Shown one piece after another: positions 21,762-44,736 of a DNA stretch of 64,000 bases (position 1 is its first letter; every line of letters begins with the position of its first letter). The notes beneath the pieces were generated by a model, which made no database searches, was not told the origin of the DNA, and saw only the letters and a program-made list of their open reading frames with translations. This stretch comes from an uncultured Acidimicrobiales bacterium (GTDB lineage Bacteria; Actinomycetota; Acidimicrobiia; Acidimicrobiales; CAWCAL01), in contig CAVOFR010000007.1 in the NCBI GenBank assembly GCA_963695075.1, positions 1,616,904 through 1,680,903 of the forward strand, given 5' to 3'. Made by a program: the position numbers and the translations under genes.

Positions 21762-24545
21762 ATGAGTGCCTCGACGGGTCAGGCCGGCACCGAGGCGTCC
21801 TACAGCCGTCGATGGACCTGGGACCGGGTCGCCTGGGGGACCCACTGCCTCAACTGCCTGGCCACCTGTCCCTACCGCGTCTTCGTACGCGACGGGTCGG
21901 TCGCCTTCGAAGAGGTGGGTGGCACGCTCCCCGTCGTCGAAGCGGGCGTGCCGGACATGAACCCCCTCGGGTGCCAGAAGGGGGCCGCCTGGAGCACCCA
22001 GCTCGACAGCGAAGACCGCATCCTGCACCCGATGCGCCGGGTGGGGGAGCGGGGTTCGGGTCGATGGGAGACGATCAGCTGGGACGAGGCCCTCGAAGAG
22101 GTCGCCGAGGCGCTCGTCGAGGCCATCGACCTCGAGGGACCGGAATCGATCATCTTCGAGGAGACGGTCGAGGGCGGGCTCATGACCCAGGCGCCCTTCC
22201 TGCGCTTCGCCGGCCTGCTGGGTGCCGTCACGCTCGACGCCAACGGCTTGGTCAACGACTTTCCCGTCGGCCAGCACATGACGTTCGGGAAGTTCTCCAG
22301 CGCGAGCAGCGTCGACGACAACTTCCACACCGAGTTGATGCTGTTGTGGCATTCGAACCCCGGCTACACATGGATCCCGTATCACCACTACCTGACCGAG
22401 GCCCGCTATCACGGGGCGCATCTCGTCACCATCGCGCCCGACTACAACGCGACCGCGGTCAGCTCCGACCAGTTCGTGCCCGTCGAGCCCGCCACCGACG
22501 CCGCTCTGGCCCTGGCGATGTGTGCAACGGTGATCGAGGAGGATCTGGCCGACCTGGCGTTCGTCCGGTCCCAGACGGATCTTCCCCTCCTCGTACTGAC
22601 CGAGAACGGCCGGTTCCTCCGGGGTCCCGACGTCGAGGCCGGGCTGGTCGAGGATCAGTTCTACACATGGCATCCCGAGGACGGGCTGACCAGGGCCGAC
22701 CGGGGCAGCCTGCTGTTGGATCACGAACCGGCGCTCGACGGCACCTGGTCGGTCACCCTCGACGACGGTACCGAGGTCGAGGTGACCACGGTGTGGGCGC
22801 TGATGCGGGAGCGTCTCGCGGACTACACGCCAGAACTGGCTTCGGAGATCTGCGGGGTGAACGCCGAGGTGATCCGGGATCTGGCACGCCGGGTGGCGCG
22901 GCAGCGCACCAAGATCCTCGAAGGCTTCAACGCTCCCAAGTACTACCACGGCGACCTCATGGAACGGTCCATGATCCTGTTGCTGGCGCTGACGGGGAAC
23001 TGGGGTCGACCGGGCACCGGTATCCAGGGGCTGGCCCTCGCGGGCCTCGACGGTTACATGCTGTTCTCCATGAAGTCCGCCGCGGGTGTCGATGAGACGG
23101 CTCGGTTGCTCGACGGCATCGACGGGGCGGTCGAGGACCTGCGCGGACGCGATCCCGACCAGTCCGAGGAGATCATCGGCAACCAGCTCCTGCAGATGGC
23201 CGTGGTGTCGGGCACGTCGACACCACCGGTCTTCTTCAACTACCACCACTGCGGGTACGACGACGCGTGGAACCGGGCCGAGTGGTCCGATCCGCACATG
23301 GAGAAGACCTTCGGCGAGTACATGGCCGAGGCGGTCCAGCGCGGTTGGTGGGGAGGCCTGACGCGGCCCGGCCAGGCGACCGATCCCCAGGTGCTGGTCG
23401 TCGTCGGCACCAATCCCCTGCGGCGGGCGCGTGGCGGGCGTACCAAGATGCTGGAGAACCTGTGGCCGAAGCTCGAGAAGGTCGTCGTCGTCGACTTTCG
23501 GATGTCGACCACAGCGCTTCACGCCGACATCGTCCTGCCCGCCGCCATGCACTACGAACGGCCGAACCTCCAGTACGCCATCACCCACACCTTCCGGCTG
23601 ACCTTCGCCGACGAGGTCGTCGAACCACCTGGCGAGGCGCGCACCGAGTGGCAGATCTTCCGGGCCCTGTCAGAGGCGGTGGAGGTGGCTGCAGAGCAAG
23701 CCGGCGTGACCGAGTATCTCGACGGGCGCCGCCAGACCCGCCGCCTCGATGCCGTCGTCGACGGCTTCACCTCCGGTGGCGTGTTCGAGACCGAGGAAGC
23801 CGTGATCGACGAGTGGGTTCGTGACTCCGTCGAGGCCGGAACCCTTCCCCCGGGGACCTCGATCGACAGCTTGCGGGAGGACGGGAGCGTCCGCTTCATC
23901 GGGCTCGGGAACTTCGCGCCCGGTCTCTCGGTCGCCGCTGATGTGGAACCGGACAAGGTCCTCACCTCCTACAAGTGGCACGCCGAGGACGGGATCCCGT
24001 TTCCGACCCTCACGCGGCGGGCGCAGTTCAACATCGATCACCCGTGGTTCCAGGCCGCCGACGAGGCGCTCCCGCGCCACAAGGCGCCGCCGAAGGTGGG
24101 CGGCGAGTACCCGTTCCTGGTCACCAGTGGCCACTCCCGCTGGACCGTGCACTCAATCGCGATGGGCAACCGTGCCGTCCTGGAGACCCACCGCGGGAGG
24201 CCGCTCGTGATCGTGAACACGGGCGAGGCCGCCGATCGCGACATCGCCGACGGAGATTGCGTGCGCGTGTGGAACGACCACGGGGACTACGAGGCGATGG
24301 CAAGGATCAGCGAGCGGGTCCGACCCGGCCAGATGATCGTGTACAACGGGTTCGAACCGCACATGTTCGCCGGGTGGCGAGGGGCCAACGAGGTGGAGCC
24401 GGGCATGGTCAAATGGCTGCACCTGGTCAGCCGGTACGGGCATCTCCGATACTTGCCGTTCGGGTGGCAACCAATTCCGGCTGATCGTGCCGTCTTCGTG
24501 GAAATCGAGAGGGTCCCGGAAGCCGGCCGGCAAGGAGGGGACTGA
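21762..24545 (+). CDS. Molybdopterin oxidoreductase catalytic subunit, type II DMSO-reductase family (EBDH/S25DH-like), alpha-1; no Tat signal
   Basis: 927 aa. FS0 motif THCLNCLATC..NPLGCQKG begins about 27 residues from the N-terminus. Candidate Mo-ligand Asp166 in GLVNDFPVGQHMTFG. Paralogous to three other genes in the window. Confidence 0.85.
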   Translation: MSASTGQAGTEASYSRRWTWDRVAWGTHCLNCLATCPYRVFVRDGSVAFEEVGGTLPVVEAGVPDMNPLGCQKGAAWSTQLDSEDRILHPMRRVGERGSGRWETISWDEALEEVAEALVEAIDLEGPESIIFEETVEGGLMTQAPFLRFAGLLGAVTLDANGLVNDFPVGQHMTFGKFSSASSVDDNFHTELMLLWHSNPGYTWIPYHHYLTEARYHGAHLVTIAPDYNATAVSSDQFVPVEPATDAALALAMCATVIEEDLADLAFVRSQTDLPLLVLTENGRFLRGPDVEAGLVEDQFYTWHPEDGLTRADRGSLLLDHEPALDGTWSVTLDDGTEVEVTTVWALMRERLADYTPELASEICGVNAEVIRDLARRVARQRTKILEGFNAPKYYHGDLMERSMILLLALTGNWGRPGTGIQGLALAGLDGYMLFSMKSAAGVDETARLLDGIDGAVEDLRGRDPDQSEEIIGNQLLQMAVVSGTSTPPVFFNYHHCGYDDAWNRAEWSDPHMEKTFGEYMAEAVQRGWWGGLTRPGQATDPQVLVVVGTNPLRRARGGRTKMLENLWPKLEKVVVVDFRMSTTALHADIVLPAAMHYERPNLQYAITHTFRLTFADEVVEPPGEARTEWQIFRALSEAVEVAAEQAGVTEYLDGRRQTRRLDAVVDGFTSGGVFETEEAVIDEWVRDSVEAGTLPPGTSIDSLREDGSVRFIGLGNFAPGLSVAADVEPDKVLTSYKWHAEDGIPFPTLTRRAQFNIDHPWFQAADEALPRHKAPPKVGGEYPFLVTSGHSRWTVHSIAMGNRAVLETHRGRPLVIVNTGEAADRDIADGDCVRVWNDHGDYEAMARISERVRPGQMIVYNGFEPHMFAGWRGANEVEPGMVKWLHLVSRYGHLRYLPFGWQPIPADRAVFVEIERVPEAGRQGGD

Positions 24546-26026
24546 TGCCCGATCTGGAGTTCACGTCTGCGTCGCGGCCCGAGCCGACGCCGCTCCCTCT
24601 CAGTGCGGACGAGCAGGCGGCGATCGCCCGGGCGTTCGAGGGCCCCTCGTCGCTCTTCTCCAACCTGAGCACCCTGCGGACGCGCCGGGTCGGCCTCGGT
24701 TACCAGATCGAGACCGGCGAGCCCGAGACGTTCGAGTGGTCGAGCGGCCAGACCGTCACCCAGGCGGTCGGTCCGTTGGCCTACGCGTCGCCCTCCGACC
24801 CGGTACCGCTGTCGGAGGTCGAAGAAGCGCTACTGGCCTGGGCGGCTCTGGGCCCCAACGGCGTCGCACTCGCCGACATCCCGGTCCAGGGCGGCCTGTC
24901 GGGAATGCTGTCGTGGGCGGGGCGCACGATCCCCGCTTCGTCGAATGACCTCTCCGTCGACCTTTTCGTCATCAACGACGAGGGCGTGTGGCGGTACCGG
25001 CCCGACCCCGAGCGGCTCGCACCCGTCGAGATAGCCGGGCCGGACGACTACTGGAAGATCCTCCACTGGTATCGCGAGAACCGCGTGAAGGTCGCCGATG
25101 CTCGTCCTGATGTCGGCTGGTTCAGCGCTCCCGAGGGCACGCACAGTGTCAACGCCATGGGACCGGGGCAGTACAACCTCAACCGTCCGGGTAGCACGTG
25201 GTTCCTCCCCGTCGGCGACCTCGGGCTCGAGTGGTACAACATGTTGCTCAGCTCCTATGAGTGGTCGGGCTTCTACCTGATGGATCCCGACACCCAGAAG
25301 GCGGCGGGCGTCGAGGAGTACATCCGGCCGGGCTTCCTGGAGGTCGGGTTCCCGATCCCGGTGTTCGACGACCTGGTCCGGCTTCTTCACGCCAGCCAGG
25401 TCGGGTGCGCGGTCCAGAATCTCCGGCTGGCGGCCGAGGCGCTCGGCCTGGGCGCCTGGCCGATGGGCTCGTACGCCGACGACCTGGTTCTCGGTGCCTA
25501 CCCGGATGTGGCCACCGGGCTCGGTTTCGATTTCCTCGAGCGTGACCCGGACCGGAACCCCGCGTTCACCACCACCTGTCTCGGCAAGCCCGGTGTGAAG
25601 GAGCCGGTCGTCGTACCCTCGCCTCAGTTCCCGACCGCGGCGGATGCGGTCACCTACGTCAAGTCGCTGCGGTACGGGCCCGGCGGTCATCTGAGTCGGG
25701 AGGCGAACTGGGCCGAACGGAACGAGGGTCCCTACCGACCCGAGGTCATGCGGGACATCCTCGAGCACCCGAAGAGCCACATCTCCGAGTGGGTCGAAAA
25801 GGCGGCCGTCGCCACCGTCGAGCACATCGTCGAGAAGTACGGATGCTGCCCGGCCTGGATCGACCCGGTGCGGGCCAAGTTCTCGGTCCAGGTACACCAC
25901 GTAGACGTGGAGTGGTACCGGCGGTTCACGGTGGGCGACGATCGACCGTACGCGGTCACCAAGGCCATTGCCGAGCACTTCGCGGACTGGCACCCCGACC
26001 GGCCCGATCCCACGGGAGGGGCGTGA
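24545..26026 (+). CDS. Large nitroreductase-superfamily-like protein (function unknown)
   Basis: 493 aa. The ATG overlaps the alpha-1 TGA. Nitroreductase-like segments LSEVEEALLAWAALGPNG and VGCAVQNLRLAAEALGLGAWPMG. Assignment is by motif only. Confidence 0.5.
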   Translation: MPDLEFTSASRPEPTPLPLSADEQAAIARAFEGPSSLFSNLSTLRTRRVGLGYQIETGEPETFEWSSGQTVTQAVGPLAYASPSDPVPLSEVEEALLAWAALGPNGVALADIPVQGGLSGMLSWAGRTIPASSNDLSVDLFVINDEGVWRYRPDPERLAPVEIAGPDDYWKILHWYRENRVKVADARPDVGWFSAPEGTHSVNAMGPGQYNLNRPGSTWFLPVGDLGLEWYNMLLSSYEWSGFYLMDPDTQKAAGVEEYIRPGFLEVGFPIPVFDDLVRLLHASQVGCAVQNLRLAAEALGLGAWPMGSYADDLVLGAYPDVATGLGFDFLERDPDRNPAFTTTCLGKPGVKEPVVVPSPQFPTAADAVTYVKSLRYGPGGHLSREANWAERNEGPYRPEVMRDILEHPKSHISEWVEKAAVATVEHIVEKYGCCPAWIDPVRAKFSVQVHHVDVEWYRRFTVGDDRPYAVTKAIAEHFADWHPDRPDPTGGA

Positions 26027-26556
26027 TGGAGACCGAGCTCGTGCGGGTGTTGGCCGCGTGGCTGCACGCCCTCGGCGTGGCGACCTACGTGGGAGGGGCG
26101 ATCATCATGGAGTTCGTCGTCGGCCCGGCCCAGAAGGCCATCCCGCCCGCCCAGGCGCAGGTCATGGGCAAGAAGGCGGCGGACCGGTTTCTCTGGTTCG
26201 CATGGGGATCGTTGGGTCTGATCGCCGTCTCGGGTCTACTGCGCCTGTTCTCCACCAACGCCGAGAAGCTGTTGTTCGGCTCCGCGGCGTTTGACGTCTC
26301 GCTCGGACGGACCTATCTCGTGAAGTCCGTCCTGTGGTTGGTGCTGGTGGTGAACGGCCTGATCATCACATTCGTGCTCAGGCCGAAGCTGTCGGCGCGG
26401 TCCGGGTCGGGTACGTCGGCCACCCAGGCTCAGTCCCATCAGCAGGACCAGGTCCGCGCCGCGAACCGGATACTGTGGCTGACCCGAGTCGACCTGGCGG
26501 TCGCCGTCGTGTTGGTGCTGCTCGGTTCGTCACTCGGGTTCGGTGGATTCCTCTGA
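26026..26556 (+). CDS. 4-TM integral membrane protein (DUF4149/CopD-like topology), paralog 1
   Basis: Internal ATG at 26026 of ORF 25789..26556, overlapping the previous TGA. Four hydrophobic stretches. N-terminus LAAWLHALGVATYVGGAIIMEFVVGPAQ matches the next gene. Confidence 0.6.
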   Translation: METELVRVLAAWLHALGVATYVGGAIIMEFVVGPAQKAIPPAQAQVMGKKAADRFLWFAWGSLGLIAVSGLLRLFSTNAEKLLFGSAAFDVSLGRTYLVKSVLWLVLVVNGLIITFVLRPKLSARSGSGTSATQAQSHQQDQVRAANRILWLTRVDLAVAVVLVLLGSSLGFGGFL

Positions 26557-26574
26557 GCGGGGACGAGGTTCCTC

Positions 26575-27111
26575 TTGGACGCTTGGGCATCGGTACTGGC
26601 CGGATTCCACGGCCTCTGCTGGGCGACGTATGTCGGCGGCGCGCTCGTGATGGAGTTCGTCTGGCGTCCCGCACAACAGGACCTTCCCGGGGCGCAGACG
26701 GCCGTGGCCTGTCAGAGGATGGGCTTGCGCTATCGCTGGATCGCCCTGGCGTCGCTCCTCGGCGTCGCGGTGAGTGGGGTCGGGCTGCTGTTCGAGGCCG
26801 GCCACCTCGCTACCTCGGCACCCGTCGTGCGCGAATCGTTGTCGTTGTCGGCCGGCTACGGTCGCACGATGGCGGCGCTCGGTGTGGTCTGGGTCGCTCT
26901 GATGGCCAACCTGGCGTTGCTGACCTTCATCGCTCACCCCGGGCTCCACGTCCGCATGACGACCGATCTCACCGAGTCCGAGATGCGTCGGGCACGCGAA
27001 AAGGTCGGCCGGGCGATCCGCCGGATGGATCGGGTGCTGCGATTCGACCTGGGTCTCGCTCTGCTGGCCATGTTGTTGGGGGCATCGCTACCGTCGGGTG
27101 GCCTGCTGTGA
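26575..27111 (+). CDS. 4-TM integral membrane protein, paralog 2 (tandem duplicate of 26026..26556)
   Basis: LAGFHGLCWATYVGGALVMEFVWRPAQ aligns with paralog 1. TTG start after GACGAGG. Confidence 0.6.
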   Translation: MDAWASVLAGFHGLCWATYVGGALVMEFVWRPAQQDLPGAQTAVACQRMGLRYRWIALASLLGVAVSGVGLLFEAGHLATSAPVVRESLSLSAGYGRTMAALGVVWVALMANLALLTFIAHPGLHVRMTTDLTESEMRRAREKVGRAIRRMDRVLRFDLGLALLAMLLGASLPSGGLL

Positions 27112-27150
27112 GCGCGTGTCGCGCTCGTTCGACCGGGAGGACGTGAGCCG

Positions 27151-28347
27151 ATGCCGAAGACCATCGCCATCACACCGTCGTGGTACTGGCCGACCGGCTG
27201 TCCGCGCGTGACCGGCGTGCCGCCGTTCCGACTCGACGAGATACTGGTCGAGAGGTGGGCGCGTCACCGGCCCGATGAGCCGGCGGTCGTCGACGAGCAT
27301 CAGCGCCTGTCTTTCTCGGAGCTGCTCGCCGTTGTCGACGAGGCGGCGGGGGCGTTGAGGGACCGGGCCGGCGAAGGCCCGGTGGCCTTCTGCGCCGGTC
27401 CGAGCGTCGAAGGGGCGGTGCTCCTGTTGGCCCTGGCGCGCTCCGGTGTGCGCGCCCACTTCCTCGATCCTTCGCTTCCGGCGAGCGCGATACCGGGAGC
27501 GACGATGGCCTGCGCGGACGAGGTCGGGTCGGCGACAGCAGCGGCCGCCGGGCTAGCGGTGTCACGGCTGGCTGACCTGTCGGGATCCGCGTCGACCGGA
27601 GCGTCGTCCCAGCCGGGCACCGGCCTGAACGACCCGGTCGTCGCCGTGGCCGGCGGCGATGACCTCGTGTGGCACTCCAACCGGTCGCTGCTCGCGGGTG
27701 CGGTGTCGCTCGGAACCTTCCTCGGAACCGGGTCCGGCAGGCCATGGCTCAGCACGGCCGCTCCATCCACGTGGGAGGGGATCTACGGTCTGGCCGTGCC
27801 GCTGGCCTCCGGTGTGACAGCGGTCCTGGCGCCACCGGGGGAGGCAGCGCTGGATCTCATGTCGCGCGAAGGAGTCGGCGCTTCCTGTTGGACACTCGAG
27901 GACGCCTTCGCGGCGACTCGCGAGGCCAAGAGGCAGGTCAAGGCGCTCAGGGGGGTTCAGGACTTCATGGTGCTCACCACCGGACGCCTGTTCGACCCCG
28001 ATCAGCGGCGACGGGTGGGGAAGCTGTTCGACACCGCGGCTCTGACCGTGTTCGGCCAGGCCGAGACGGGGCCGATCTTCGCTTCCCATGCCTCCTGGTA
28101 TCTCGACGAATCGGTGGGTATCCCGCTCTCGAACGCGTGGGTCGTCCCGGTCGATCCGCGATCGGGCAACCCGATCCCGACGCTGTGGGAGCTCGTCGAG
28201 TCGGCCATGGTCACCGTGTGGTCCCCTTCCCTGTTCGTCGGCTACGGGGGTGAGGCTCATCCGGAGCGGTTCCGCGACGGCAGGTTCTCGACGGGGATCA
28301 TCGCCAGCTCCGACGCCAACGGCATGATCTACCTGCTGCCCGACTGA
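27151..28347 (+). CDS. Adenylate-forming (ANL/acyl-CoA-synthetase) homolog, degenerate and lacking the C-terminal subdomain
   Basis: 398 aa. ANL-like HRPDEPAVVDEHQRLSFSELL, FGQAETGP (YGxTE-like) and FSTGIIASSDANGMIYLLPD, then a stop. No SGTTGxPKG P-loop; the corresponding stretch reads VAVAGGDDLVWHSN. Confidence 0.55.
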   Translation: MPKTIAITPSWYWPTGCPRVTGVPPFRLDEILVERWARHRPDEPAVVDEHQRLSFSELLAVVDEAAGALRDRAGEGPVAFCAGPSVEGAVLLLALARSGVRAHFLDPSLPASAIPGATMACADEVGSATAAAAGLAVSRLADLSGSASTGASSQPGTGLNDPVVAVAGGDDLVWHSNRSLLAGAVSLGTFLGTGSGRPWLSTAAPSTWEGIYGLAVPLASGVTAVLAPPGEAALDLMSREGVGASCWTLEDAFAATREAKRQVKALRGVQDFMVLTTGRLFDPDQRRRVGKLFDTAALTVFGQAETGPIFASHASWYLDESVGIPLSNAWVVPVDPRSGNPIPTLWELVESAMVTVWSPSLFVGYGGEAHPERFRDGRFSTGIIASSDANGMIYLLPD

Positions 28348-29049: not shown

Positions 29050-29484
29050 TTGCGGCTGACCCTTACCAGACGGGGCGAGTACGGGGTCCGGCTCGTCCTG
29101 CACCTGGCGGCGCAGCCTCCCGGCACTCGTATGACAGCGGCCGCGATAGGGCGAGCATGTGAGATCCCCGCGGGAAACGTGCCCACGATCGTGAACGTTC
29201 TGTCGCGTGCGGGGATCCTGTCGTGCAACCCGGGGCGCAAGGGGGGCTGCACGCTGGCGCGTGAACCCGCCCAGATCACGATCCTGGACGTCGTCGAGGC
29301 GCTCGAGGGCTCGTTCGACGCCCCCAACTGCCTGCTCGATTCCCGGCGGTGCCACGACCACGACCCCGAGTGCGCCGTGCACGTGGCGTGGTCCGAGGGT
29401 CGCAGCGCTGCACTCGCCGCGTTGGCCGACACTTCGCTGGCCGACGCAGTCGAGCGCGAACGTGAGATCGCCGCCCGGGGCTGA
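29050..29484 (+). CDS. Rrf2-family (IscR/NsrR-like) transcriptional regulator with three clustered Cys
   Basis: LTRRGEYGVRLVLHLA..MTAAAIGRACEIPAGNVPTIVNVLSRAGIL winged-helix region. CLLDSRRCHDHDPEC (C-x6-C-x6-C). TTG start. Confidence 0.8.
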   Translation: MRLTLTRRGEYGVRLVLHLAAQPPGTRMTAAAIGRACEIPAGNVPTIVNVLSRAGILSCNPGRKGGCTLAREPAQITILDVVEALEGSFDAPNCLLDSRRCHDHDPECAVHVAWSEGRSAALAALADTSLADAVEREREIAARG

Positions 29485-29547
29485 GCCCCTCGTCGCCGGT
29501 GGGACGGTCCCCGGGTCGTGGCCCGTTCCCCGTGTGACAAATGCCCG

Positions 29548-29576: not shown

Positions 29577-29615
29577 CGCTACGATTTCTCATCTTGTCGA
29601 TGGAAGGGGCCCGTC

Positions 29616-36157: not shown

Positions 36158-38887
36158 CTACCGGTGTGTCGTCGGCTCGACCTCCACGCGGAACAGGCGG
36201 TCGGACTGCTGGGGCTGCCATTGGAGGTCGGAGTAGGCGAGGTGACCGTATCCCCCGGCGAAGTGCAGCGACTTCACCATGCCGGGTTCGACCCAGGTCA
36301 CATCCTTCCACTCGGGGTACAGGTACTGCTCCCATGACCCGTAGAGGATCACCTGGCCGGGCCGGACCGACGACGTCAGCCGAGCGCGCACCGCCAGCTC
36401 GCCGACGTCGTTGAAGACCCGGACCGTGTCGCCATCGGCGACCTGGCGGGCGTCGGCATCGTCGGTGTTGAGGTGGATCGTCGGCCCGCCCCGGGTCGTT
36501 TCGAGCATCATCCGGCTCGAGGTGTTGGTGGCGTGGATGCTCCAGCGGGGATGACCGCCGGTGAGCTGGAGTGGGTAGTCGCCGCCGGCCGGCGGTGGGT
36601 CCTTGTGGACGGGCAGGTGCTCGTCGGCTTCGAAGAACCACGGGTGGTCGAGGTAGAACTGAGCGCGGCCGGTCAGCGTCGGGAAGGGCATGCCTTCCAG
36701 GTGGTGTCGATAGGCGACGAACGGTCCGTCGTCGTCGAGGTCACCGGCACAGACGCCGGCCATGATGCGGGGGAGCTCGGTGGGTCGCACCCAGCCGGTC
36801 TCGCGCAAGCTGCTCACCGATGTCCCCGGCGGCACGCTCCCGGCCAGAGCGCTGTCACGCAGCACCTCGTCGATGGCCGCCTCCTCGGTTCGGACGGCGC
36901 CGCCCATCGTGACGGTGTCGAACACCCCGGAGTAGCTGCGCTTGCCGCCCCGGGAGTCGTCGAAGGTGTCGAGCCCACGCTCTGCCGCGCGCCGGGTGAT
37001 CGCCTCGGCCAGCCCCAGGAAGATCTGCCAGTCCGATCGCGATTCGCCCTCGGGCTCGACCGCCTTGTCGGCGAGCATCCGTTCCCACGAGTGCGAGTTG
37101 GCGGCGTGGAGGTCCAACCGCTCGTGCTCGCAGGCGACCGGCAGCACCAGGTCCGCGTACAGGCCGACCGTGCTCATCTTCCAGTCGAGTACGGCGATCA
37201 TGTCGAGCTTGGGCCACAAGTGGCGGAGCAGTTGGCGCTGGCCGCCCCGGGTTCGGCGCAGTGTGTTCGTACCGGCCTGGAGCAGCACGCGAGGGGTCAT
37301 CTGCGGCTTGGGGCGCACCAACCCGCTCCACCAGCCGCGGGACTGCGATTCGCGGATGTACTCGTCGTAGGGGCGGGGGCTGTCGCCCCAGCCTTCGTGG
37401 TCCCAGATCTCGTCGAAGCCGCAGTGGTACCAGAAGAAGAAGGCGGGTGGGGTCGAGGGCATGTTCGGCGCGTTGGCCTGCATCATCTGGAGCACGGCGC
37501 GACCGTCGGTCATGGCCGGGTCCGACGCCTTCATGGCATCGAGGTAGGCGTCGAGGCCGGCGACGGCGGCCTCGGCCGACTCGATTCCCGCGCCGCCCTT
37601 CAGCAGTCCCAGCACCTCCCCGTCGAGAAGGGCGATGATGTAGGTGTCGAGCCCACGGCCGGCCTGTCCCCAGTTGCCGGTGAGTGCGAGCACCAGGTCC
37701 ATGGCGCGTTCCATCAGGTCACCGTGATGGTGCTTGCAGCTGCCCAGCCCGTTGTACAGCTTGGTTCGGCCCGAGGAGACCATCCGGGCCAGCTCGCGGA
37801 TCGTGGCCGGCGCCACGTCGCAGATCTGCGACGCGTCCTCGGGCGAGTAGCCGGCCAGGCGCTCGCGCAGCAGTTCGAACACGGGTGTGACCTCGACCCG
37901 GGTGCCGTCCAGGAGCGACACCTCCCACCGGCCCTCCAACGCGACGTCGGACGGCGCCTTCGGATCATCGAGCCGGGTCTGATCGGAGGGAGTCAGGGAC
38001 CCGCCCCGCCAAACGTAGAACCGGTCGGCGCGCCCGTCCGGCTCGACGTCCTCGGAGCGGAGGAACCGCCGGGTGTCGGTACGCACCAGGAGTGGAAGGT
38101 CGGTCTGGGATCGGACGAAGTCGAGGTCGGCCAGGCCCTCGTCGACGATCACCCGGCACATCGAGAGCGAGAGGGCGGCGTCGGAGCCCGGCCGGACCGG
38201 CACGTGCATGTCGGTGTGCATGGCCGACGGGCTGTAGTCGGGGGCGATCAACACGACCTTGGCGCCGTGGTAGCGGGCTTCGGGCAGGTAGTGGAAGTAG
38301 GGGATGCGCGTGAAGGCGGGGTTGCAGTTCCACACGAGGATCACATCGGCTCGGAACGTGTCGTCGGCGCTCGAACCGCCCAGCAGGCTGCCGAACGTCA
38401 TCCAGTGCCCGAGGTGCACGTCGCTCACCGTCGAGTTGCTGTCGAACGTCACCGAGTCGAGTGCCGCGCCGAGACGGGCCCGGCCCAGGCCACCCGCCAC
38501 GCCCGACTCGGGCCCGGGGTCCATGATGATCGAGTGCGCTCCCTCGCCCTCGAGTCCGTCGATGACCGCGTCCGCGAGGCTGTCGAGAGCATCTTCCCAG
38601 CCGATGCGTTCCCACTCACCCGAGCCCCGCTCACCCACCCGCCGCAACGGATGGAGTAGCCGCTCGTCGCCCTGGGCCTGTGTGTGCCATGCACCGCCCT
38701 TCTGACAACCGAGCGGGTTCATGTCGGGCACACCGTCGTAGGACGGCAGACCCCCCGACTGTTCCTGGTAGACGACCTTCCCGTCCGCCGCGAAGAGGCG
38801 GTACGAGCAGTTGGCGATGCAGTTGCCGCAATGCGACGCCCAGGTCACTTGATCCCAGGTCCAGCGGTCCGCTGGGGTGGTGGTCAT
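36158..38887 (-). CDS. Molybdopterin oxidoreductase catalytic subunit, EBDH/S25DH-like, alpha-3; no Tat signal
   Basis: ATG 38887 preceded by GAGGAG, within ORF 36158..39010. Motifs: SHCGNCIANC..NPLGCQKG. Candidate Mo-ligand Asp156 in STVSDVHLGHWMTFG. 909 aa. Confidence 0.85.
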   Translation of the reverse strand: MTTTPADRWTWDQVTWASHCGNCIANCSYRLFAADGKVVYQEQSGGLPSYDGVPDMNPLGCQKGGAWHTQAQGDERLLHPLRRVGERGSGEWERIGWEDALDSLADAVIDGLEGEGAHSIIMDPGPESGVAGGLGRARLGAALDSVTFDSNSTVSDVHLGHWMTFGSLLGGSSADDTFRADVILVWNCNPAFTRIPYFHYLPEARYHGAKVVLIAPDYSPSAMHTDMHVPVRPGSDAALSLSMCRVIVDEGLADLDFVRSQTDLPLLVRTDTRRFLRSEDVEPDGRADRFYVWRGGSLTPSDQTRLDDPKAPSDVALEGRWEVSLLDGTRVEVTPVFELLRERLAGYSPEDASQICDVAPATIRELARMVSSGRTKLYNGLGSCKHHHGDLMERAMDLVLALTGNWGQAGRGLDTYIIALLDGEVLGLLKGGAGIESAEAAVAGLDAYLDAMKASDPAMTDGRAVLQMMQANAPNMPSTPPAFFFWYHCGFDEIWDHEGWGDSPRPYDEYIRESQSRGWWSGLVRPKPQMTPRVLLQAGTNTLRRTRGGQRQLLRHLWPKLDMIAVLDWKMSTVGLYADLVLPVACEHERLDLHAANSHSWERMLADKAVEPEGESRSDWQIFLGLAEAITRRAAERGLDTFDDSRGGKRSYSGVFDTVTMGGAVRTEEAAIDEVLRDSALAGSVPPGTSVSSLRETGWVRPTELPRIMAGVCAGDLDDDGPFVAYRHHLEGMPFPTLTGRAQFYLDHPWFFEADEHLPVHKDPPPAGGDYPLQLTGGHPRWSIHATNTSSRMMLETTRGGPTIHLNTDDADARQVADGDTVRVFNDVGELAVRARLTSSVRPGQVILYGSWEQYLYPEWKDVTWVEPGMVKSLHFAGGYGHLAYSDLQWQPQQSDRLFRVEVEPTTHR

Positions 38888-38952
38888 CGCGCTTCTCCTC
38901 GGTCGGGTGACGGTTGGCAGGGCCATGTCAGGGACTGCAATATGATCGGTCC

Positions 38953-39936
38953 GTGAGAGCTGTGGTGACGGGTGCGTACGGCCATGTGGGTGCCAACCTC
39001 GTGCGCGCACTGTTGGCGGCCGACTGGGAGGTGCGGGCGGCCGACCGACGGAGGACCGACGCGCTCGTCGGGCTCGACGTCGAACATGTCGATGTCGATG
39101 TGCTCGATCCGGGGAGTCTTCGCGCCGCGTTCGCAGATGCCGACGTGGTGTTCCACCTGGCCGCGGTCATCTCGATCGTCGGCGATCCAACGGGCGTCGT
39201 CTGGCGGGTGAACGTCGAGGGTCCGGGTAATGCGGCCGAGGCCGCACTCGCCTGCGATGTCGGCCGCTTCGTGCACTGCAGCTCGGTCCACGCGTTCGAC
39301 CTGGAGAAGTGCGGTCCGTCGATCGACGAAACCGCGGCGAGGGCGGTCGGGGATCACGCGCCGGCCTACGATCGTTCGAAGAACGCGGGGGAGAGCTCGG
39401 TACGCAGGGTCATCGAGAAGGGCCTCGACGCTGTCATCGTCAATCCGACCGGCGTGATCGGCCCTCACGACTACGGCCCGTCGCGTATGGGCGAAACGCT
39501 CGTTCGACTGGCCGAGCGCAAGATCCCGGTGAATGTGCCCGGTGGGTTCGACTTCGTCGATGTACGCGATCTCGTCACGGGAATGGTCTCCGCCGCCGAG
39601 CGGGGCAGAACCGGCGAGAACTACCTCCTGTCGGGCACACGGCTCTCGATCAAGGAGCTCGGTCGCCTCGTCGCCGACTCCACCGGCGTGCGGCCACCGC
39701 GAATCGATCTGCCGATGAGGCTGGTGGCGCCGCTCGCCCCCCTCGTGCTCAGGCTCACCCCCGACGATCGGACACCCCTGTTCACGCCCGACGCCATGCA
39801 CGCCTTGCGCTATTCCCCCGACGCCAGTCACCACCTGGCGGCCAGGGAGCTCGGCTACGTCGCCCGCCCGATCCACGAGACCGTGGCCGACACGCTCTCC
39901 TGGTTCGATGAGAGGGCTCTGTCGGGCCGCGGTTGA
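38953..39936 (+). CDS. NAD-dependent epimerase/dehydratase-family (extended SDR) protein
   Basis: GTG 38953 within ORF 38914..39936. VRAVVTGAYGHVGANLVRALL Rossmann motif and PAYDRSK (YxxxK). Confidence 0.75.
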   Translation: MRAVVTGAYGHVGANLVRALLAADWEVRAADRRRTDALVGLDVEHVDVDVLDPGSLRAAFADADVVFHLAAVISIVGDPTGVVWRVNVEGPGNAAEAALACDVGRFVHCSSVHAFDLEKCGPSIDETAARAVGDHAPAYDRSKNAGESSVRRVIEKGLDAVIVNPTGVIGPHDYGPSRMGETLVRLAERKIPVNVPGGFDFVDVRDLVTGMVSAAERGRTGENYLLSGTRLSIKELGRLVADSTGVRPPRIDLPMRLVAPLAPLVLRLTPDDRTPLFTPDAMHALRYSPDASHHLAARELGYVARPIHETVADTLSWFDERALSGRG

Positions 39937-41989: not shown

Positions 41990-42003
41990 CGGCCGGGCGC
42001 AGG

Positions 42004-44736
42004 TCAGAGCTTGCGGACATCGACGCGATGGACGCGGTCGAACTGGACGGGCTGCCATTGCATCGGCATGAATCGCAGATGCCCCCAGCCGGTGGCCAGG
42101 TGAAGCCACTTGACCATCCCCGCCTCGATCTGCGTGCCGTCCCCCCAGCCGTCGAAACCGTAGGCCTCCCAGGCGGCGTACAGGATCACCTGGCCCGGCC
42201 GGGCGGCCGGCGAGAGGCGGACCCCGACGGTGAACCCGCCGATGTCGTTCTCCACCCGCACCAGCTCCTCCTCGGTGATGGCCCCGGCGGCGGCGTCAGC
42301 GGGGTTCATCACGAGCGTCGGGTGACCGCGGGTGGTCTGGAGAATGACGGGATTGGTGGCGTTGCAGGCGTGGATGCTCCAGCGGGGATGGCCGCCGGTG
42401 AGTACGAAGGGGTGGTTGCCGCCGATGGCCGGAGGCGACTTGTGCCGGGGGAGAGCTTCGTCGGCCTCGAGGAACCAGGGGTGATCGACGAAGAAGGTCG
42501 CCCGACCCGTCGTCGTCGAATAGGGCATGCCGTCCTCGACATGCCAGCGCAGGGCGCTGAAGGTCTCGTCGCCGCCGATCGGGCTGCCCATCCACCGTCC
42601 GATCGGCAGGCTCCCATTGCCCTCCACCCGCGCCCAACCGTGCTCGCGCATGCTCTCGAGCGACGTGCCGAGATCGAGCACGCCGGAAATGGCGGTGTCG
42701 CGAAGCAGCTCGTCGATCACGTCCTCGTCGTCGCGGAGGGCACCGTCGAAGTGGAACGCCGAGCCGACCTCGGCGAGGGGTCGCTCGCCTCCCCATCCGA
42801 CCATCCGGTCGCCCATTCCACGCTCGAGGGCTCGAGCGCCGATGGCGTCGGCGATATCGGCATAGATCTGCCAATCGGAGCGGGCCTCGCCGGCTGGTTC
42901 GACGGCCTGGTCCGAGAAGACCACTTCGAAGGAGTGCGAGATCGGATACTGGACGTTGACCCGCTCACCTTCGTGGGCCGCCGGGAGGACGATGTCGGCG
43001 TGGAGACCGGCCGAGTTGAATCTCTGGTCGATCGAGACGACCAGGTTCAGCTTGGGCCACAGGTTCTCGAGGAGCATTCGACCTCCACCGCGGGTGCGGC
43101 GCAGTGCGTTCGTGGCCCCTTCGATGAGGACGCGGGGCTCGATGTCGGGGCCGGGACGCCTGAACGGAGCCCATTCCGGCATGGCCTCCTCGAGGTACTC
43201 GCGAAATGGCCGGGGCGAGTCACCCCAGCTGACCTCGTCCCAGACCTCGCCATAGCCGCAGTGGTCGAGCCACAGGAAGAACGGCGGACTCGTGCTGCCG
43301 CTCATGGCGGCCATGCTCAGGAAGTCCCAGATGCCGGGCCGGGCCAGCGGCGGGGGCACACCCCCTTCCTCGTCGGCCTCGCCGAACGCCGCCCGCATGG
43401 CCGCCACCGCTCCCACGGCGAGCTCGACGCCGGTGCCGCCTTTCAGGTTCTGGAGATAGGTGCCGTCGAAAGGGAATGTCGAGTAGGTGTCGTGGCCGGC
43501 ACCCTTGCGCCCCCAGTTGCCCGTCAGGGCGAGGAGGAGATTCATCGACCGCTCCATGAGGTCGCCGTGGTAGTGCTTGGCGGTGTCGAACCCCTCGTGC
43601 AGTTTGGTGGCCCCGCCGGCCACCTTGCGAGCCAGCAGGCGGATGGTGTCGGGATGCACACCGCACACCTCGCCCGCCGCTTCGGGGCCGTAGTCGGCCA
43701 GCCGTTCGATGAGCAGATCGAAGACCGGTCGCACCTCGACCGAACTCCCGTCGGCCAGGGTCGCTTCGTATCGGCCGCGGAGCGCGGCGTCGCCCTCGAG
43801 GTGCAGGGTGTCCTCGGGTGCGACGGTGATGCCCCGGTCGGGGACCCACACGTGAAACCGCAGATCACCGCCACCCTCGACGACGTCGGCGCCGCGAAGC
43901 AGGCGTCCCGTGTCGGTTCTCACCAGCAACGCCATGTCGGTCTGCGTGCGGATGAAGGCTTCGTCGACCAGGCCCTCGTCCGCGATGACGTGACACATGC
44001 CGAGTGCGAGGGCGGCGTCGCTGCCCGGCACGACCGGCACGAAGTGGTCGGCGTGGACCGCGCTCGGGCTGTAGTCGGGGGCGATGAGGACGACCTCTGC
44101 ACCGCGGTATCGGGCTTCGGTGAGGTAGTGGAAGTACGGGATGCGGGTGTAAGCCGGATTGGCGTGCCAGATCAGAACGACGTCAGCGTGGAAGGTGTCG
44201 TCCGCGGTCGACCCGCCGACGATGTTGCCGAACGTCACATAGTGCCCGTGGGGGATGTCGTTGACGCTGGCGATCGCGTCCAGAGAAGTGGCCCCCAGGG
44301 TGTTGGCCAGACGTGACTGCCCGCCGATCGACAGAAGCCCACCCTCGGAGCTCTCGTCCACCAGGACCGCCATGGGTCCCGATTCCTCGACGGCGTCGCA
44401 GACCGCGTCGGCGATGTCGGTGAGGGCCTCGTCCCACGTGATCTGTTCCCACTGGCCACCGCCCCGCTCGCCGACCCGCCGCATGGGGTGCAGCAGGCGG
44501 TCACCGCCGTCGAGCTGGTGATGCCACGCGCCGCCCTTCTGGCAGCCCATGGGATTGCGATCGGGCACGCCTTGCTCGGTCGCGGGGAAGACGCCTGACT
44601 GCTCCTGGAACTCGATGGAACCGTCCGCGGTGTACACGCGATATGAACACGTCGAGAGGCAGTTGACGCAGTGCGTGCCCCAGGTGACACGCTCCCAGGC
44701 GAACCGGCTGCGATAGGAATTCTCCGTGGCGGTCAT
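42004..44736 (-). CDS. Molybdopterin oxidoreductase catalytic subunit, EBDH/S25DH-like, alpha-4 (orphan); no Tat signal
   Basis: ATG 44736 within ORF 42004..45366; the 210-aa upstream extension is low-complexity and overlaps the divergent ligase gene. Motifs: THCVNCLSTC..NPMGCQKG. Candidate Mo-ligand Asp160 in ASVNDIPHGHYVTFG. Confidence 0.85.
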   Translation of the reverse strand: MTATENSYRSRFAWERVTWGTHCVNCLSTCSYRVYTADGSIEFQEQSGVFPATEQGVPDRNPMGCQKGGAWHHQLDGGDRLLHPMRRVGERGGGQWEQITWDEALTDIADAVCDAVEESGPMAVLVDESSEGGLLSIGGQSRLANTLGATSLDAIASVNDIPHGHYVTFGNIVGGSTADDTFHADVVLIWHANPAYTRIPYFHYLTEARYRGAEVVLIAPDYSPSAVHADHFVPVVPGSDAALALGMCHVIADEGLVDEAFIRTQTDMALLVRTDTGRLLRGADVVEGGGDLRFHVWVPDRGITVAPEDTLHLEGDAALRGRYEATLADGSSVEVRPVFDLLIERLADYGPEAAGEVCGVHPDTIRLLARKVAGGATKLHEGFDTAKHYHGDLMERSMNLLLALTGNWGRKGAGHDTYSTFPFDGTYLQNLKGGTGVELAVGAVAAMRAAFGEADEEGGVPPPLARPGIWDFLSMAAMSGSTSPPFFLWLDHCGYGEVWDEVSWGDSPRPFREYLEEAMPEWAPFRRPGPDIEPRVLIEGATNALRRTRGGGRMLLENLWPKLNLVVSIDQRFNSAGLHADIVLPAAHEGERVNVQYPISHSFEVVFSDQAVEPAGEARSDWQIYADIADAIGARALERGMGDRMVGWGGERPLAEVGSAFHFDGALRDDEDVIDELLRDTAISGVLDLGTSLESMREHGWARVEGNGSLPIGRWMGSPIGGDETFSALRWHVEDGMPYSTTTGRATFFVDHPWFLEADEALPRHKSPPAIGGNHPFVLTGGHPRWSIHACNATNPVILQTTRGHPTLVMNPADAAAGAITEEELVRVENDIGGFTVGVRLSPAARPGQVILYAAWEAYGFDGWGDGTQIEAGMVKWLHLATGWGHLRFMPMQWQPVQFDRVHRVDVRKL

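What the first reader, a model, noticed from the sequence alone, without database searches (positions are those of the whole stretch)
21762..44736. Four signal-less EBDH/S25DH-type molybdoenzyme alpha subunits served by a single gamma-beta-delta set
Seen in the sequence:
- There are four paralogous alpha genes (927, 942, 909 and 910 aa).
- Each has an H-x3-C-x3-C...C FS0 motif only 8-30 residues from the N-terminus: THCLNCLATC, THCVDCYPGNC, SHCGNCIANC, THCVNCLSTC, each followed by NP[LM]GC[QN]KG.
- Each has an Asp in [NS]-D-[FVI]..H..TFG (D166, D169, D156, D160 of the respective proteins) at the place where I expect the Mo-ligating Asp of NarG/EbdA.
- None has an RRxF[LK] twin-arginine motif with a hydrophobic stretch, and in-frame stops exclude longer N-termini for alpha-1.
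- The window contains only one NarH/EbdB-like beta, one EB_dh gamma and one TorD-like delta.

Established knowledge:
- Ethylbenzene dehydrogenase, steroid C25 dehydrogenases and p-cymene dehydrogenase are Tat-exported periplasmic enzymes that hydroxylate C-H bonds with water.
- Sterolibacterium denitrificans carries more alpha paralogs than beta/gamma copies, and the alphas share them.

Inference: this is a cytoplasmic, multi-specificity, O2-independent hydroxylase set in a high-GC Gram-positive-type genome. That localisation and host would be unusual for this enzyme clade.
Basis: partly seen in the sequence, partly recalled or inferred. Interest (0 to 1): 0.85.

Follow-up and report, generated by a model that had tools for sequence, protein, structure and literature searches.

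The report
Cytoplasmic, heme-less ethylbenzene-dehydrogenase-type molybdoenzyme set
This actinobacterial gene island encodes four versions of a molybdenum enzyme related to the oxygen-free C-H hydroxylases of anaerobic bacteria, but all lack the export signal, and their shared small subunit lacks both heme-binding residues, which marks a widespread, unstudied, probably cytoplasmic branch of that enzyme class.

Summary
The window contains four intact alpha genes (927, 942, 909 and 910 aa) and exactly one gamma, one beta and one delta. Each alpha has the FS0 His/Cys motif 19-32 residues from its start. Each has an Asp aligned with the Mo ligand Asp223 of EbdA. None has a Tat signal.

- In a tree of 88 relatives, all 40 signal-less alphas form one clade (100% bootstrap). 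That clade sits inside the EbdA-containing group and outside chlorate reductase and archaeal nitrate reductase.
- The clade occurs in Acidimicrobiia, Chloroflexota, Myxococcota, marine Gammaproteobacteria and other phyla.
- The gamma subunit here, and its closest relatives, has lost both heme b axial ligands (Met to Ile/Leu, Lys to Gly/Ala/Arg). One signal-less subclade has no gamma nearby at all.
- A conserved operon recurs in three phyla: alpha2, gamma, beta, delta, alpha1, an FMN-nitroreductase-fold protein, two CopD-like membrane proteins and an adenylase-like protein.
- The neighbours are CtmAB/delta-24-desaturase-like flavoproteins, thiolase/DUF35 pairs and a 3-beta-HSD-like reductase. 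They point to oxygen-independent isoprenoid or sterol catabolism.

Verdict: a new variant of a known kind. Hydroxylase activity, substrate and electron acceptor remain inferred.

The parts
21762..24545 (+). alpha-1 (927 aa), Mo-bisPGD catalytic subunit, FS0 HCLNCLATC, Asp166, no signal peptide
   Evidence: It carries PF00384 and PF01568. It aligns end to end with EbdA 2IVF_A (E 2e-210), and D166 falls on D223. An in-frame stop lies 2 codons upstream. Orthologues in L012, L021, L083 and L085 are 61-67% identical.
24545..26026 (+). p493: conserved unknown protein with an FMN-nitroreductase-superfamily fold, always directly downstream of alpha-1-type genes
   Evidence: It has no Pfam hit above cut-off. 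Homologues, all named 'hypothetical', are 57-88% identical. The AF2 model has pLDDT 76.6 and pTM 0.83. Foldseek matches FMN nitroreductases and ThcOx. Synteny is seen in L012, L021, L083, L084 and L085.
26026..26556 (+). M1: CopD-like 4-TM membrane protein
   Evidence: PF05425 CopD scores 35 bits against a cut-off of 32.1. It has a coding GC3 pattern. The motif H..Y.GG...ME in TM1 is conserved. Orthologues occupy the same position in five loci.
26575..27111 (+). M2: paralogue of M1 (33% identity), CopD-like membrane protein
27151..28347 (+). AMP-binding (ANL)-like protein of 398 aa that lacks the usual C-terminal domain; the last gene of the conserved module
   Evidence: PF00501 gives a partial match. 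Orthologues sit in L012, L021, L083, L084 and L085.
29050..29484 (+). Rrf2-family regulator upstream of the alpha-2 operon
   Evidence: PF02082, E 9e-29.
29616..32444 (+). alpha-2 (942 aa from GTG; alternative ATG at 29541), FS0 HCVDCYPGNC, Asp169; first gene of the alpha-gamma-beta-delta operon
   Evidence: The stretch 29541-29615 has GC3 0.56, which is non-coding.
32446..33027 (+). gamma (193 aa), EB_dh/DOMON-like subunit with both heme b axial ligand positions substituted (Ile101, Gly180)
   Evidence: PF09459 gives E 3e-10. The match to EbdC 2IVF_C gives E 3.5e-16, with M108 replaced by I and K201 replaced by G. Its closest relatives show the same loss and have no conserved replacement ligand.
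33041..34126 (+). beta (361 aa), four-cluster Fe-S subunit
   Evidence: It scores 433 bits against EbdB 2IVF_B over residues 13-346, and all Cys groups are kept. TIGR03478 scores 457 against a cut-off of 480.7.
34136..34795 (+). delta (219 aa), TorD/NarJ-type assembly chaperone
   Evidence: PF02613 scores 35.9 bits against a cut-off of 22.2. TIGR03482 scores 82 bits, below its cut-off of 152.
34846..36108 (-). radical-SAM/SPASM anaerobic sulfatase maturase-type enzyme with a C-terminal SEC-C motif; recurs beside related operons
   Evidence: TIGR03942 scores 459 bits against a cut-off of 349. Homologues lie in L006 (59%) and L012 (56%).
36158..38887 (-). alpha-3 (909 aa), FS0 HCGNCIANC, Asp156, orphan alpha
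   Evidence: Orthologues in L051 (70%) and L061 have no beta or gamma within 6 kb.
38914..39936 (+). NAD-dependent SDR, 3-beta-HSD / HpnA / SdmB-like, divergent from alpha-3
   Evidence: PF01370 and PF01073. TIGR03466 HpnA scores 221 bits and NF052578 SdmB scores 205 bits. Both are below cut-off.
42004..44736 (-). alpha-4 (910 aa), FS0 HCVNCLSTC, Asp160, orphan alpha
   Evidence: The upstream ORF extension is antisense to the ligase gene and is not coding. The orthologue in L030 is 65% identical.
44726..46414 (+). acyl-CoA synthetase, divergent from alpha-4
   Evidence: PF00501 and PF13193.
46404..51665 (-). three CtmAB / delta-24-steroid-desaturase-like flavoproteins (CrtI/CrtO family). The first carries the covalent-FMN motif GFLHNTHA
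   Evidence: Pfam, NCBIfam and motif search. The motif is as defined in PMC11061730.

Best explanation
**What it is.** The region encodes a cytoplasmic variant of the ethylbenzene-dehydrogenase / steroid-C25-dehydrogenase class of Mo-bisPGD enzymes.

**Proposed workings.**
- Four anciently diverged catalytic alpha subunits each carry the Asp Mo ligand, its Lys partner and the FS0 cluster.
- All four are matured by one TorD/NarJ-type delta.
- Each is proposed to dock in turn onto the single four-cluster beta and a gamma that keeps the EB_dh fold but no longer ligates heme b.
- By analogy with EbdA, S25DH and S26DH, each alpha would oxidise a different alkyl or isoprenoid C-H position with water as the oxygen source. 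Electrons would pass from Mo to FS0 and then through FS1-FS4 of beta.
- With no heme b and no periplasmic cytochrome c, the electrons must leave by another route. The best candidate is the strictly co-conserved module downstream of alpha-1: an FMN nitroreductase-fold protein followed by two CopD-like membrane proteins.
- The surrounding genes are CtmAB/delta-24-desaturase-like flavoproteins, thiolase/DUF35 pairs, ETF, hydratases, CoA ligases and a 3-beta-HSD-like SDR. They place the system in oxygenase-independent degradation of isoprenoid, sterol or hopanoid-type lipids.

**Shown versus inferred.**
- Shown: family placement, cofactor-ligand residues, absence of signals, loss of heme ligands, and synteny across phyla.
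- Inferred: cytoplasmic location, hydroxylase chemistry, sharing of beta/gamma/delta, the electron exit route and the substrate class.
For: **Family**
- a1 aligns with EbdA at 704 bits end to end. beta aligns with EbdB at 433 bits. gamma aligns with EbdC at E 3.5e-16.
- The Asp223 and Lys450 equivalents are present in all four alphas.
- In the NJ tree of 88 alphas, the signal-less clade (40 sequences) has 100% support. Its grouping with a small Tat-bearing sister clade has 100%, and the grouping with EbdA has 100%. ClrA and pNarG fall outside.

**No export**
- None of the alphas, gamma, beta or delta has a twin-arginine motif followed by a hydrophobic stretch.
- The upstream extensions are non-coding.
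- 40 of 40 clade members lack Tat signals, whereas the neighbouring clades carry clear ones.

**Heme loss**
- M108 is replaced by I and K201 by G.
- Every gamma found beside a signal-less alpha shows the same loss (window, L002, L003, L012, L013, L016, L021), except L010. Every gamma beside a Tat-bearing alpha keeps both ligands.
- Among 150 representative gammas, the roughly 16 closest to this one lack both ligands and have no conserved substitute.
- One signal-less subclade has alpha plus beta with no gamma.

**Sharing**
- The order alpha2(-alpha2')-gamma-beta-delta-alpha1 is conserved in Actinomycetota, Gammaproteobacteria and Chloroflexota.
- Orthologues of a3 and a4 are orphans.
- There is precedent in S. 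denitrificans (PMC6016249; PMC6153880).

**Context**
- The covalent-FMN motif of delta-24-SD/CtmAB is present in two neighbouring proteins.
- An SdmB/HpnA-like SDR lies beside a3.
- Thiolase/DUF35 pairs and ETF are present.
Against: - No member of the signal-less clade has been characterised, so the chemistry is extrapolated from relatives about 38% identical.
- All curated NCBIfam cut-offs are missed: TIGR03479 scores 761-842 against 984.75, and the EbdA equivalog scores 630-727 against 2000.
- The EBDH-specific His192 is absent. S25DH also lacks it.
- The tree is distance-based.
- Localisation rests on sequence only. No dedicated predictor was available.
- Relatives can carry extra beta/delta or complete sets nearby. 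The rest of the 2.2 Mb contig was not visible, so sharing is not proven.
- L010 pairs a signal-less alpha with a gamma that keeps Met and Lys.
- The role of p493 and the CopD-like proteins as an electron exit is conjecture.
Confidence: 0.58

Rival explanations
1. The enzymes are cytoplasmic but do different chemistry. Options include reduction of an oxyanion or N-/S-oxide (NarG-, Clr- or Ser-like), or only alcohol/allylic oxidation or hydration, rather than water-dependent C-H hydroxylation.
For: - The clade is uncharacterised and misses every curated family cut-off.
- Type II DMSO reductases span reductases and dehydrogenases (PMC10100899).
- His192 of EBDH is missing.
- Loss of the high-potential heme could suit a reductive direction.
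Against: - The clade nests with EbdA and excludes ClrA and pNarG at 100% bootstrap.
- There are four or more paralogues per locus, set in lipid-catabolic islands beside delta-24-desaturase/CtmAB-like enzymes, thiolases and CoA ligases.
- No oxyanion transporter, chlorite dismutase or NarI is present.
- S25DH also lacks the His.
Confidence: 0.22
2. The complex is exported or externally anchored after all. It would hitch-hike on an unidentified Tat-bearing partner, or the true N-termini are mis-called or mis-assembled.
For: - Beta and gamma of EBDH themselves have no signal and are co-exported with alpha (EbdC is 214 aa with no signal).
- a3 and a4 have long in-frame upstream ORFs. The a4 extension contains an 'RRFSSS...VLAGVQIAPSLL' stretch.
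Against: - No subunit in the operon has a Tat signal.
- a1 has a stop two codons upstream of its start.
- The extensions have non-coding or antisense codon patterns.
- Orthologues in 40 of 40 clade members from independent assemblies are equally short.
- Loss of the heme ligands fits a changed compartment.
- In L002 and L003, Tat-bearing and signal-less sets lie side by side, each with its own beta.
Confidence: 0.06
3. The four alphas do not share one beta-gamma-delta. Only alpha-2, or alpha-2 and alpha-1, uses the set in the window. Alpha-3 and alpha-4 would use sets encoded elsewhere, work as alpha-beta or alone, or be little-used spares.
For: - Relatives have additional beta-delta or alpha-gamma-beta-delta sets within 10 kb.
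- One signal-less subclade is alpha-beta only.
- Only 64 kb of a 2.2 Mb contig is visible.
Against: - Conserved synteny places two or three alphas around one gamma-beta-delta in three phyla.
- Orthologues of a3 and a4 are orphans in other genomes too.
- All four alphas are intact, with coding GC3 and conserved ligand residues.
- Sharing is documented for S25DH.
Confidence: 0.3

Closest known systems
Ethylbenzene dehydrogenase EbdABCD (Aromatoleum aromaticum; PDB 2IVF)
   Same: - It is the best structural and sequence relative of alpha (36-39% identity end to end), beta (433 bits) and gamma.
- It shares the Asp Mo ligand, Lys450, FS0, the four beta clusters and a TorD-like delta.
   Different: - EbdA has a Tat signal and the enzyme is periplasmic.
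- EbdC ligates heme b through Met108 and Lys201. Here those positions are Ile and Gly.
- His192 is absent here.
- The gene order here is alpha-gamma-beta-delta.
- The equivalog cut-offs are missed by a wide margin.
Steroid C25 / C26 dehydrogenases S25DH1-4 and S26DH (Sterolibacterium denitrificans)
   Same: - There are several alpha paralogues with fewer beta/gamma sets and a dedicated chaperone.
- The alphas are exchangeable on one beta-gamma.
- There is no active-site His.
- The enzymes work alongside delta-24 desaturase-type flavoproteins in oxygen-independent side-chain degradation (PMC6016249, PMC6153880, PMC11061730).
   Different: - S25DH and S26DH carry Tat signals, contain heme b and are assigned to the periplasm (PMC7411048).
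- The Tat-bearing 'HxxNCWYQxxC' clade, which JGI labels steroid C-25 hydroxylase, is a separate branch from the signal-less clade.
Respiratory nitrate reductase NarGHJI
   Same: - The alpha lacks a Tat signal, and the alpha-beta unit faces the cytoplasm.
- A NarJ/TorD-type chaperone is present.
- It uses the same Asp-ligated Mo-bisPGD/FS0 architecture.
   Different: - NarG scores only 196 bits against a1 and is about 300 residues longer.
- No NarI-type diheme cytochrome b is present.
- Here there is a soluble EB_dh-fold gamma, and CopD-like membrane proteins take the place of a NarI.
Chlorate / perchlorate reductases ClrABDC and PcrAB
   Same: They belong to the same type II DMSO-reductase family. 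PcrA scores 437 bits against a1.
   Different: - They are Tat-exported reductases, and ClrC keeps Met and Lys.
- ClrA falls outside the EbdA-plus-signal-less clade in the tree.

Membership tests
Type II (Asp-ligated) DMSO reductase family, alpha subunit | N-terminal FS0 motif H-x3-C-x3/4-C...C | tested here: met
   All four alphas have it. a2 has C-x4-C spacing.
Type II (Asp-ligated) DMSO reductase family, alpha subunit | Asp Mo ligand aligned with EbdA Asp223 / NarG Asp222, with the Lys450 partner | tested here: met
   D166, D169, D156 and D160 occupy the ligand column, and a conserved Lys occupies the K450 column.
Type II (Asp-ligated) DMSO reductase family, alpha subunit | Score above the curated NCBIfam TIGR03479 cut-off (984.75 bits) | tested here: not met
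   Scores are 761-842 bits. The profile match starts at positions 35-51, so the signal region is missing.
Type II DMSO reductase beta / delta partners | NarH/EbdB-like four-cluster beta and a TorD/NarJ chaperone encoded alongside | tested here: met
   Beta scores 433 bits against EbdB with all Cys groups kept. Delta matches PF02613 above cut-off.
EBDH / S25DH / CmdA alkyl-chain hydroxylase subcluster | Phylogenetic placement with EbdA, excluding oxyanion reductases | tested here: met
   NJ tree with 100 bootstraps. The grouping with EbdA has 100% support, and ClrA and pNarG fall outside.
EBDH / S25DH / CmdA alkyl-chain hydroxylase subcluster | Twin-arginine signal on alpha (periplasmic enzyme) | tested here: not met
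   None is present in any alpha or partner subunit.
EBDH / S25DH / CmdA alkyl-chain hydroxylase subcluster | Heme b gamma subunit with Met/Lys axial ligands | tested here: not met
   Ile101 and Gly180 occupy the ligand columns, and no conserved substitute exists.
EBDH / S25DH / CmdA alkyl-chain hydroxylase subcluster | Water-dependent hydroxylation of a C-H bond | not testable with these tools
   This needs an enzyme assay. It is inferred only from phylogeny and gene context.
Ethylbenzene dehydrogenase proper (NCBIfam equivalogs EbdA/B/C/D) | Equivalog cut-offs (2000 / 740 / 400 / 360 bits) and active-site His192 | tested here: not met
   Scores are 630-727, 433, 63.5 and 46.6 bits. The His192 column is a gap.
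NarGHI-type cytoplasmic nitrate reductase | NarG-length alpha (about 1240 aa) and a NarI diheme membrane subunit | tested here: not met
   NarG scores only 196 bits, in fragments. TIGR01580 scores 192-242 against a cut-off of 1084. No NarI-like gene lies in the window.

The most novel reading that the evidence does not exclude
The signal-less clade is a NarGHI-like, cytoplasm-facing respiratory hydroxylase. In this reading the heme function of gamma was given up. Electrons from oxygen-independent C-H hydroxylation of isoprenoid, sterol or hopanoid lipids flow from beta through the FMN protein p493 into a heterodimer of CopD-like membrane proteins, possibly holding a His/Met-ligated cofactor, and on to the quinone pool. 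Interchangeable alpha subunits would set substrate specificity. Such a system would let abundant uncultured marine, soil and sponge-associated Acidimicrobiia, Chloroflexota and Gammaproteobacteria attack inert lipid side chains without oxygenases.
Probability: 0.2. Interest if true: 0.85.

Novelty: new variant of a known kind. Interest (0 to 1): 0.68.

Why it matters
Every characterised member of this hydroxylase group (EbDH, S25DH, S26DH, p-cymene dehydrogenase) is a Tat-exported periplasmic heme b enzyme from denitrifying Betaproteobacteria. That location forces sterol intermediates to shuttle across the membrane (PMC7411048).

A large cytoplasmic branch without the heme ligands would change three things:
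- where oxygen-independent C-H activation is thought to take place;
- which organisms are thought to perform it, including many uncultured Acidimicrobiia, Chloroflexota, Myxococcota and marine Gammaproteobacteria;
- how its electrons are thought to reach the respiratory chain.

It would also offer hydroxylases that need neither Tat export nor heme insertion. That is attractive for biocatalysis such as 25-hydroxyvitamin D3 synthesis. The strictly conserved p493/CopD/CopD/ANL-like module is a defined, testable candidate for the missing electron acceptor.

Tried and rejected
- **Genome scan for labelled references.** ClrA and Haloferax NarG were recovered from plasmids instead. An S25dA-like label came only from a JGI name on P0440.
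- **S25DH sources.** Dermer & Fuchs 2012 is not held. The supplementary Tat alignment of PMC7411048 covers only the first 50 columns.
- **Literature.** Searches for an earlier description of signal-less EBDH-like enzymes found none. Subscription reviews are not searchable, so this is absence of evidence only.
- **Longer N-termini.** Extensions for a2, a3 and a4 were considered and rejected on codon-position GC. The 'SRRW' in a1 was rejected as a Tat motif because it is the conserved pre-FS0 motif.
- **Wrong ORF.** ORF 26334-27146 was rejected as the wrong frame. The real genes there are M1 and M2.
- **p493.** Sequence searches against Pfam, NCBIfam and PDB gave only a 30-residue nitroreductase motif. 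Only the fold search was informative.
- **RNA.** Rfam and tRNA scans of the window were empty, so there is no Moco riboswitch.

Full report

Gene calling by codon-position GC picks out four large ORFs in 21.7-44.8 kb (GC3 0.86-0.88). All four carry PF00384 and PF01568.

The four FS0 motifs are HCLNCLATC, HCVDCYPGNC, HCGNCIANC and HCVNCLSTC. Their His residues lie at positions 28, 32, 19 and 22, and each motif is followed by NP[LM]GC[QN]KG.

a1 aligns with ethylbenzene dehydrogenase alpha (2IVF_A) from residue 5 to 917, at E 2e-210 and 704 bits. In that alignment, and in a five-sequence MAFFT alignment, D166, D169, D156 and D160 occupy the column of the Mo ligand Asp223. The Lys450 column is conserved. 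The EBDH-specific His192 column is a gap.

A tblastn of beta, gamma and delta against the whole 64 kb finds one copy of each:
- gamma at 32446-33027 (PF09459);
- beta at 33041-34126 (433 bits to EbdB, all Cys groups kept);
- delta at 34136-34795 (PF02613).

These three follow alpha-2 tightly, so the operon is alpha2-gamma-beta-delta.

**2. Are they really signal-less?**

- a1 has an in-frame stop two codons before its ATG.
- a2, a3 and a4 have longer in-frame ORFs. The a2 and a3 extensions have GC3 of 0.56 and 0.59. The a4 extension shows the mirrored codon pattern of the acyl-CoA ligase gene on the other strand. None of them is coding.
- No candidate N-terminus combines a twin-arginine motif with a hydrophobic stretch. 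Tat-bearing relatives show textbook signals.
- The 'SRRWTWD' of a1 is the conserved YRx[RK]WxWD element. It also precedes FS0 in EbdA.
- Gamma, beta and delta have no signal either. Hitch-hiking on a partner within the operon is therefore excluded.

No dedicated Tat or Sec predictor was available, so localisation remains a sequence inference.

**3. What are they related to?**

PDB scores fall from EbdA (704 bits) to PcrA (437), NarG (196) and NxrA (76). NCBIfam finds TIGR03479 and the EbdA equivalog as best models for all four alphas, but every score is below the curated cut-off. The profile matches start at positions 35-51, where the signal region ends.

The closest database proteins come from MAGs:
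- Acidimicrobiia/Acidimicrobiales, 70-79% identity;
- Dehalococcoidia and other Chloroflexota, about 66%;
- marine Gammaproteobacteria, about 63%.

All are 913-990 aa.

A genome scan gave 80 loci. ClrABDC of Ideonella and pNarGH of Haloferax were added from plasmids. Reading the sequence upstream of FS0 in every locus gives a clean split:
- EbdA-like, 'HxxNCWYQxxC', Clr, Nar and Campylobacterota-type alphas carry Tat signals.
- The HCVDCYPGNC, HSVDCYPGGC, HCLNCLA, HCGNCIANC and HCVNCLS types do not.

An NJ tree was built from 88 sequences and 893 columns, with 100 bootstraps:
- All 40 signal-less alphas form one clade (100%).
- That clade is sister to four Tat-bearing Dehalococcoidia and delta-proteobacterial sequences (100%).
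- Next comes EbdA (100%), then the WYQ clade (96%).
- ClrA and pNarG lie outside.
- a1, a3 and a4 form one deep subclade and a2 another. Each has orthologues in other phyla, so the four are old paralogues (44-51% identical to each other).
- The WYQ clade contains a protein that JGI names steroid C-25 hydroxylase alpha.

Two caveats apply. The tree is distance-based, and it lacks labelled S25dA, CmdA, SerA, DdhA and PcrA sequences.

**4.

In the alignment to EbdC, and also to NxrC, the heme b axial ligands Met108 and Lys201 correspond to Ile101 and Gly180.

Across the loci:
- Every gamma next to a signal-less alpha has I/L at the Met position and G/A/R at the Lys position (window, L012, L013, L016, L021, L002, L003). 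L010 is the one exception.
- Every gamma next to a Tat-bearing alpha keeps Met and Lys.

Among the 150 best representatives from a search of 1.84 billion cluster representatives, 92 keep Met and Lys. The roughly 16 closest to this gamma lack both. They have no conserved His, Met, Lys or Cys that could take over.

One signal-less subclade (HSVDCYPGGC) has only alpha plus beta nearby, with no gamma.

Loss of the signal and loss of the heme site therefore go together. This is good circumstantial evidence for a real change of compartment and electron partner.

**5. Conserved architecture**

The gene order alpha2(-alpha2')-gamma-beta-delta-alpha1-p493-CopD-CopD-ANL-like recurs in three phyla:
- Actinomycetota MAGs (L012, L021);
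- Gammaproteobacteria (L013, L016, L083, L084);
- Ca. Amarobacter glycogenicus, Chloroflexota (L085).

In the window the alpha1 module lies 5 kb upstream of alpha2. Two or three alphas flanking one gamma-beta-delta is thus an ancestral trait. Orthologues of a3 and a4 are orphans elsewhere. This supports subunit sharing, as documented for S25DH. It does not prove it, because relatives also carry extra beta-delta or complete sets.

The proteins of the accessory module look like this:
- p493 has 57-88% identical 'hypothetical' homologues and no Pfam family. Its AF2 model has pLDDT 76.6 and pTM 0.83. The fold matches FMN nitroreductases and ThcOx.
- M1 and M2 are paralogous 4-TM CopD-like proteins. 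They share a conserved H..Y.GG...ME motif in helix 1.

I propose this module as the electron exit. That is conjecture.

**6. Context and likely role**

The window is a catabolic island. It contains:
- five thiolase-like genes, most paired with DUF35/ChsH2-OB genes;
- ETF alpha and beta;
- enoyl-CoA hydratases;
- an acyl-CoA dehydrogenase;
- CoA ligases;
- an ABC uptake system;
- MarR, TetR and Rrf2 regulators;
- eight CrtI/CrtO-family flavoproteins.

Two of the flavoproteins carry the exact covalent-FMN consensus G-F-[LR]-x-[NS]-[TL]-H-A. That consensus was defined for the delta-24-steroid desaturase of S. denitrificans and for limonene dehydrogenase CtmAB. Their neighbours carry variants of it. 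In Sterolibacterium that desaturase feeds the Mo-dependent C26 hydroxylase.

The SDR beside a3 resembles HpnA and the sterol demethylase SdmB, in both cases below cut-off.

The most likely job is therefore oxygenase-independent functionalisation of isoprenoid, sterol or hopanoid-type side chains, with a different alpha for each position or substrate. This is inference from context.

**7. Comparison, novelty and verdict**

All characterised relatives are described as Tat-exported, periplasmic heme b enzymes. I found no paper describing the signal-less clade. Subscription reviews could not be searched.

The system works like an EBDH/S25DH-type enzyme, but it fails two defining features of that group: the Tat signal and the heme b ligands. 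It also misses the curated cut-offs. I file it as a new variant of a known kind.

It gains interest from the heme-ligand loss, the clade-wide distribution and the conserved accessory module. It loses some novelty because the arrangement is common in metagenomes rather than peculiar to this genome.

Noticed in passing
window 24545-28347: A strictly conserved four-gene module lies downstream of alpha-1-type genes in three phyla. It comprises an unknown 493-aa protein with an FMN-nitroreductase/ThcOx-like fold (57-88% identical homologues, all 'hypothetical'), two paralogous CopD-like 4-TM proteins with a conserved H..Y.GG...ME motif, and a truncated AMP-binding-like protein. Its function is unknown.
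   Followed up: partly
window 34846-36108 (-): An anaerobic-sulfatase-maturase-type radical SAM/SPASM enzyme scores above the TIGR03942 cut-off and has a C-terminal SEC-C zinc motif. It lies directly after delta. Homologues sit beside related operons in L006 and L012. No sulfatase gene was seen in the window, but a sulfotransferase lies at 353-1831.
   Followed up: partly
window 46404-51665 (-) and 60403-63765 (+): Five CrtO/CrtI-family flavoproteins are arranged as adjacent pairs or a triplet. 46404-48134 (GFLHNTHA) and 62137-63765 (GFRFNTHA) carry the covalent-FMN histidine motif of delta-24-steroid desaturase / limonene dehydrogenase CtmAB. 60403-62115 has Cys in place of that His.
   Followed up: partly
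window 5143-6780 and 15201-21129: Repeated thiolase-like (Thiolase_C_1) genes are paired with DUF35/ChsH2 OB-fold genes, giving at least five thiolase-like ORFs. One 490-aa ORF (18472-19944) appears to fuse thiolase-like and OB domains. ETF alpha and beta lie at 3289-5143.
   Followed up: no
L015, L017, L018, L022, L035, L047: A signal-less subclade with FS0 motif HSVDCYPGGC (Myxococcota, Dehalococcoidia, Spirochaetales MAGs) has alpha followed by beta but no gamma or delta within 6 kb. These may be gamma-less two-subunit enzymes.
   Followed up: no
L002 and L003 (Dehalococcoidia MAGs): A signal-less alpha-gamma-beta set (gamma ligands Leu/Arg) lies immediately next to a Tat-bearing alpha with its own second beta. 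One genome therefore keeps both the cytoplasmic-type and the exported-type enzyme side by side.
   Followed up: partly
L034, L036-L043, L049 (5160), L080: In a Tat-bearing clade of EBDH-like alphas, my FS0 regular expression found no H-x3-C motif. Either the FS0 ligands differ or the cluster is lost. L083 and L084 also contain a DUF3237-beta-delta-alpha set without gamma.
   Followed up: no
window 40412-41989 (+): A 525-aa protein has about seven N-terminal TM helices, a weak RnfD/NqrB-like Pfam hit below cut-off, and a soluble C-terminal domain. It ends 15 bp before the stop of alpha-4, in convergent orientation. It is not conserved in the related loci.
   Followed up: no
window 38887-38914 and 44726-44736: Alpha-3 with the SDR gene, and alpha-4 with the CoA ligase gene, are divergent pairs whose annotated starts are 26 bp apart or even overlap. 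Alpha-1 has no Shine-Dalgarno sequence. This suggests leaderless transcripts or later true starts for the neighbouring genes.
   Followed up: no
window 11323-12672 (+): A DUF222 (HNH-endonuclease-associated, 13E12-repeat-type) gene typical of Actinomycetota interrupts the catabolic island. It may be a mobile-element remnant.
   Followed up: no
L010 (Acidobacteria MAG) 669-1526: This is the one exception to the correlation. A gamma that keeps Met and Lys is encoded upstream of a signal-less alpha (HCIDCYPGNC), in gamma-beta-alpha order.
   Followed up: no
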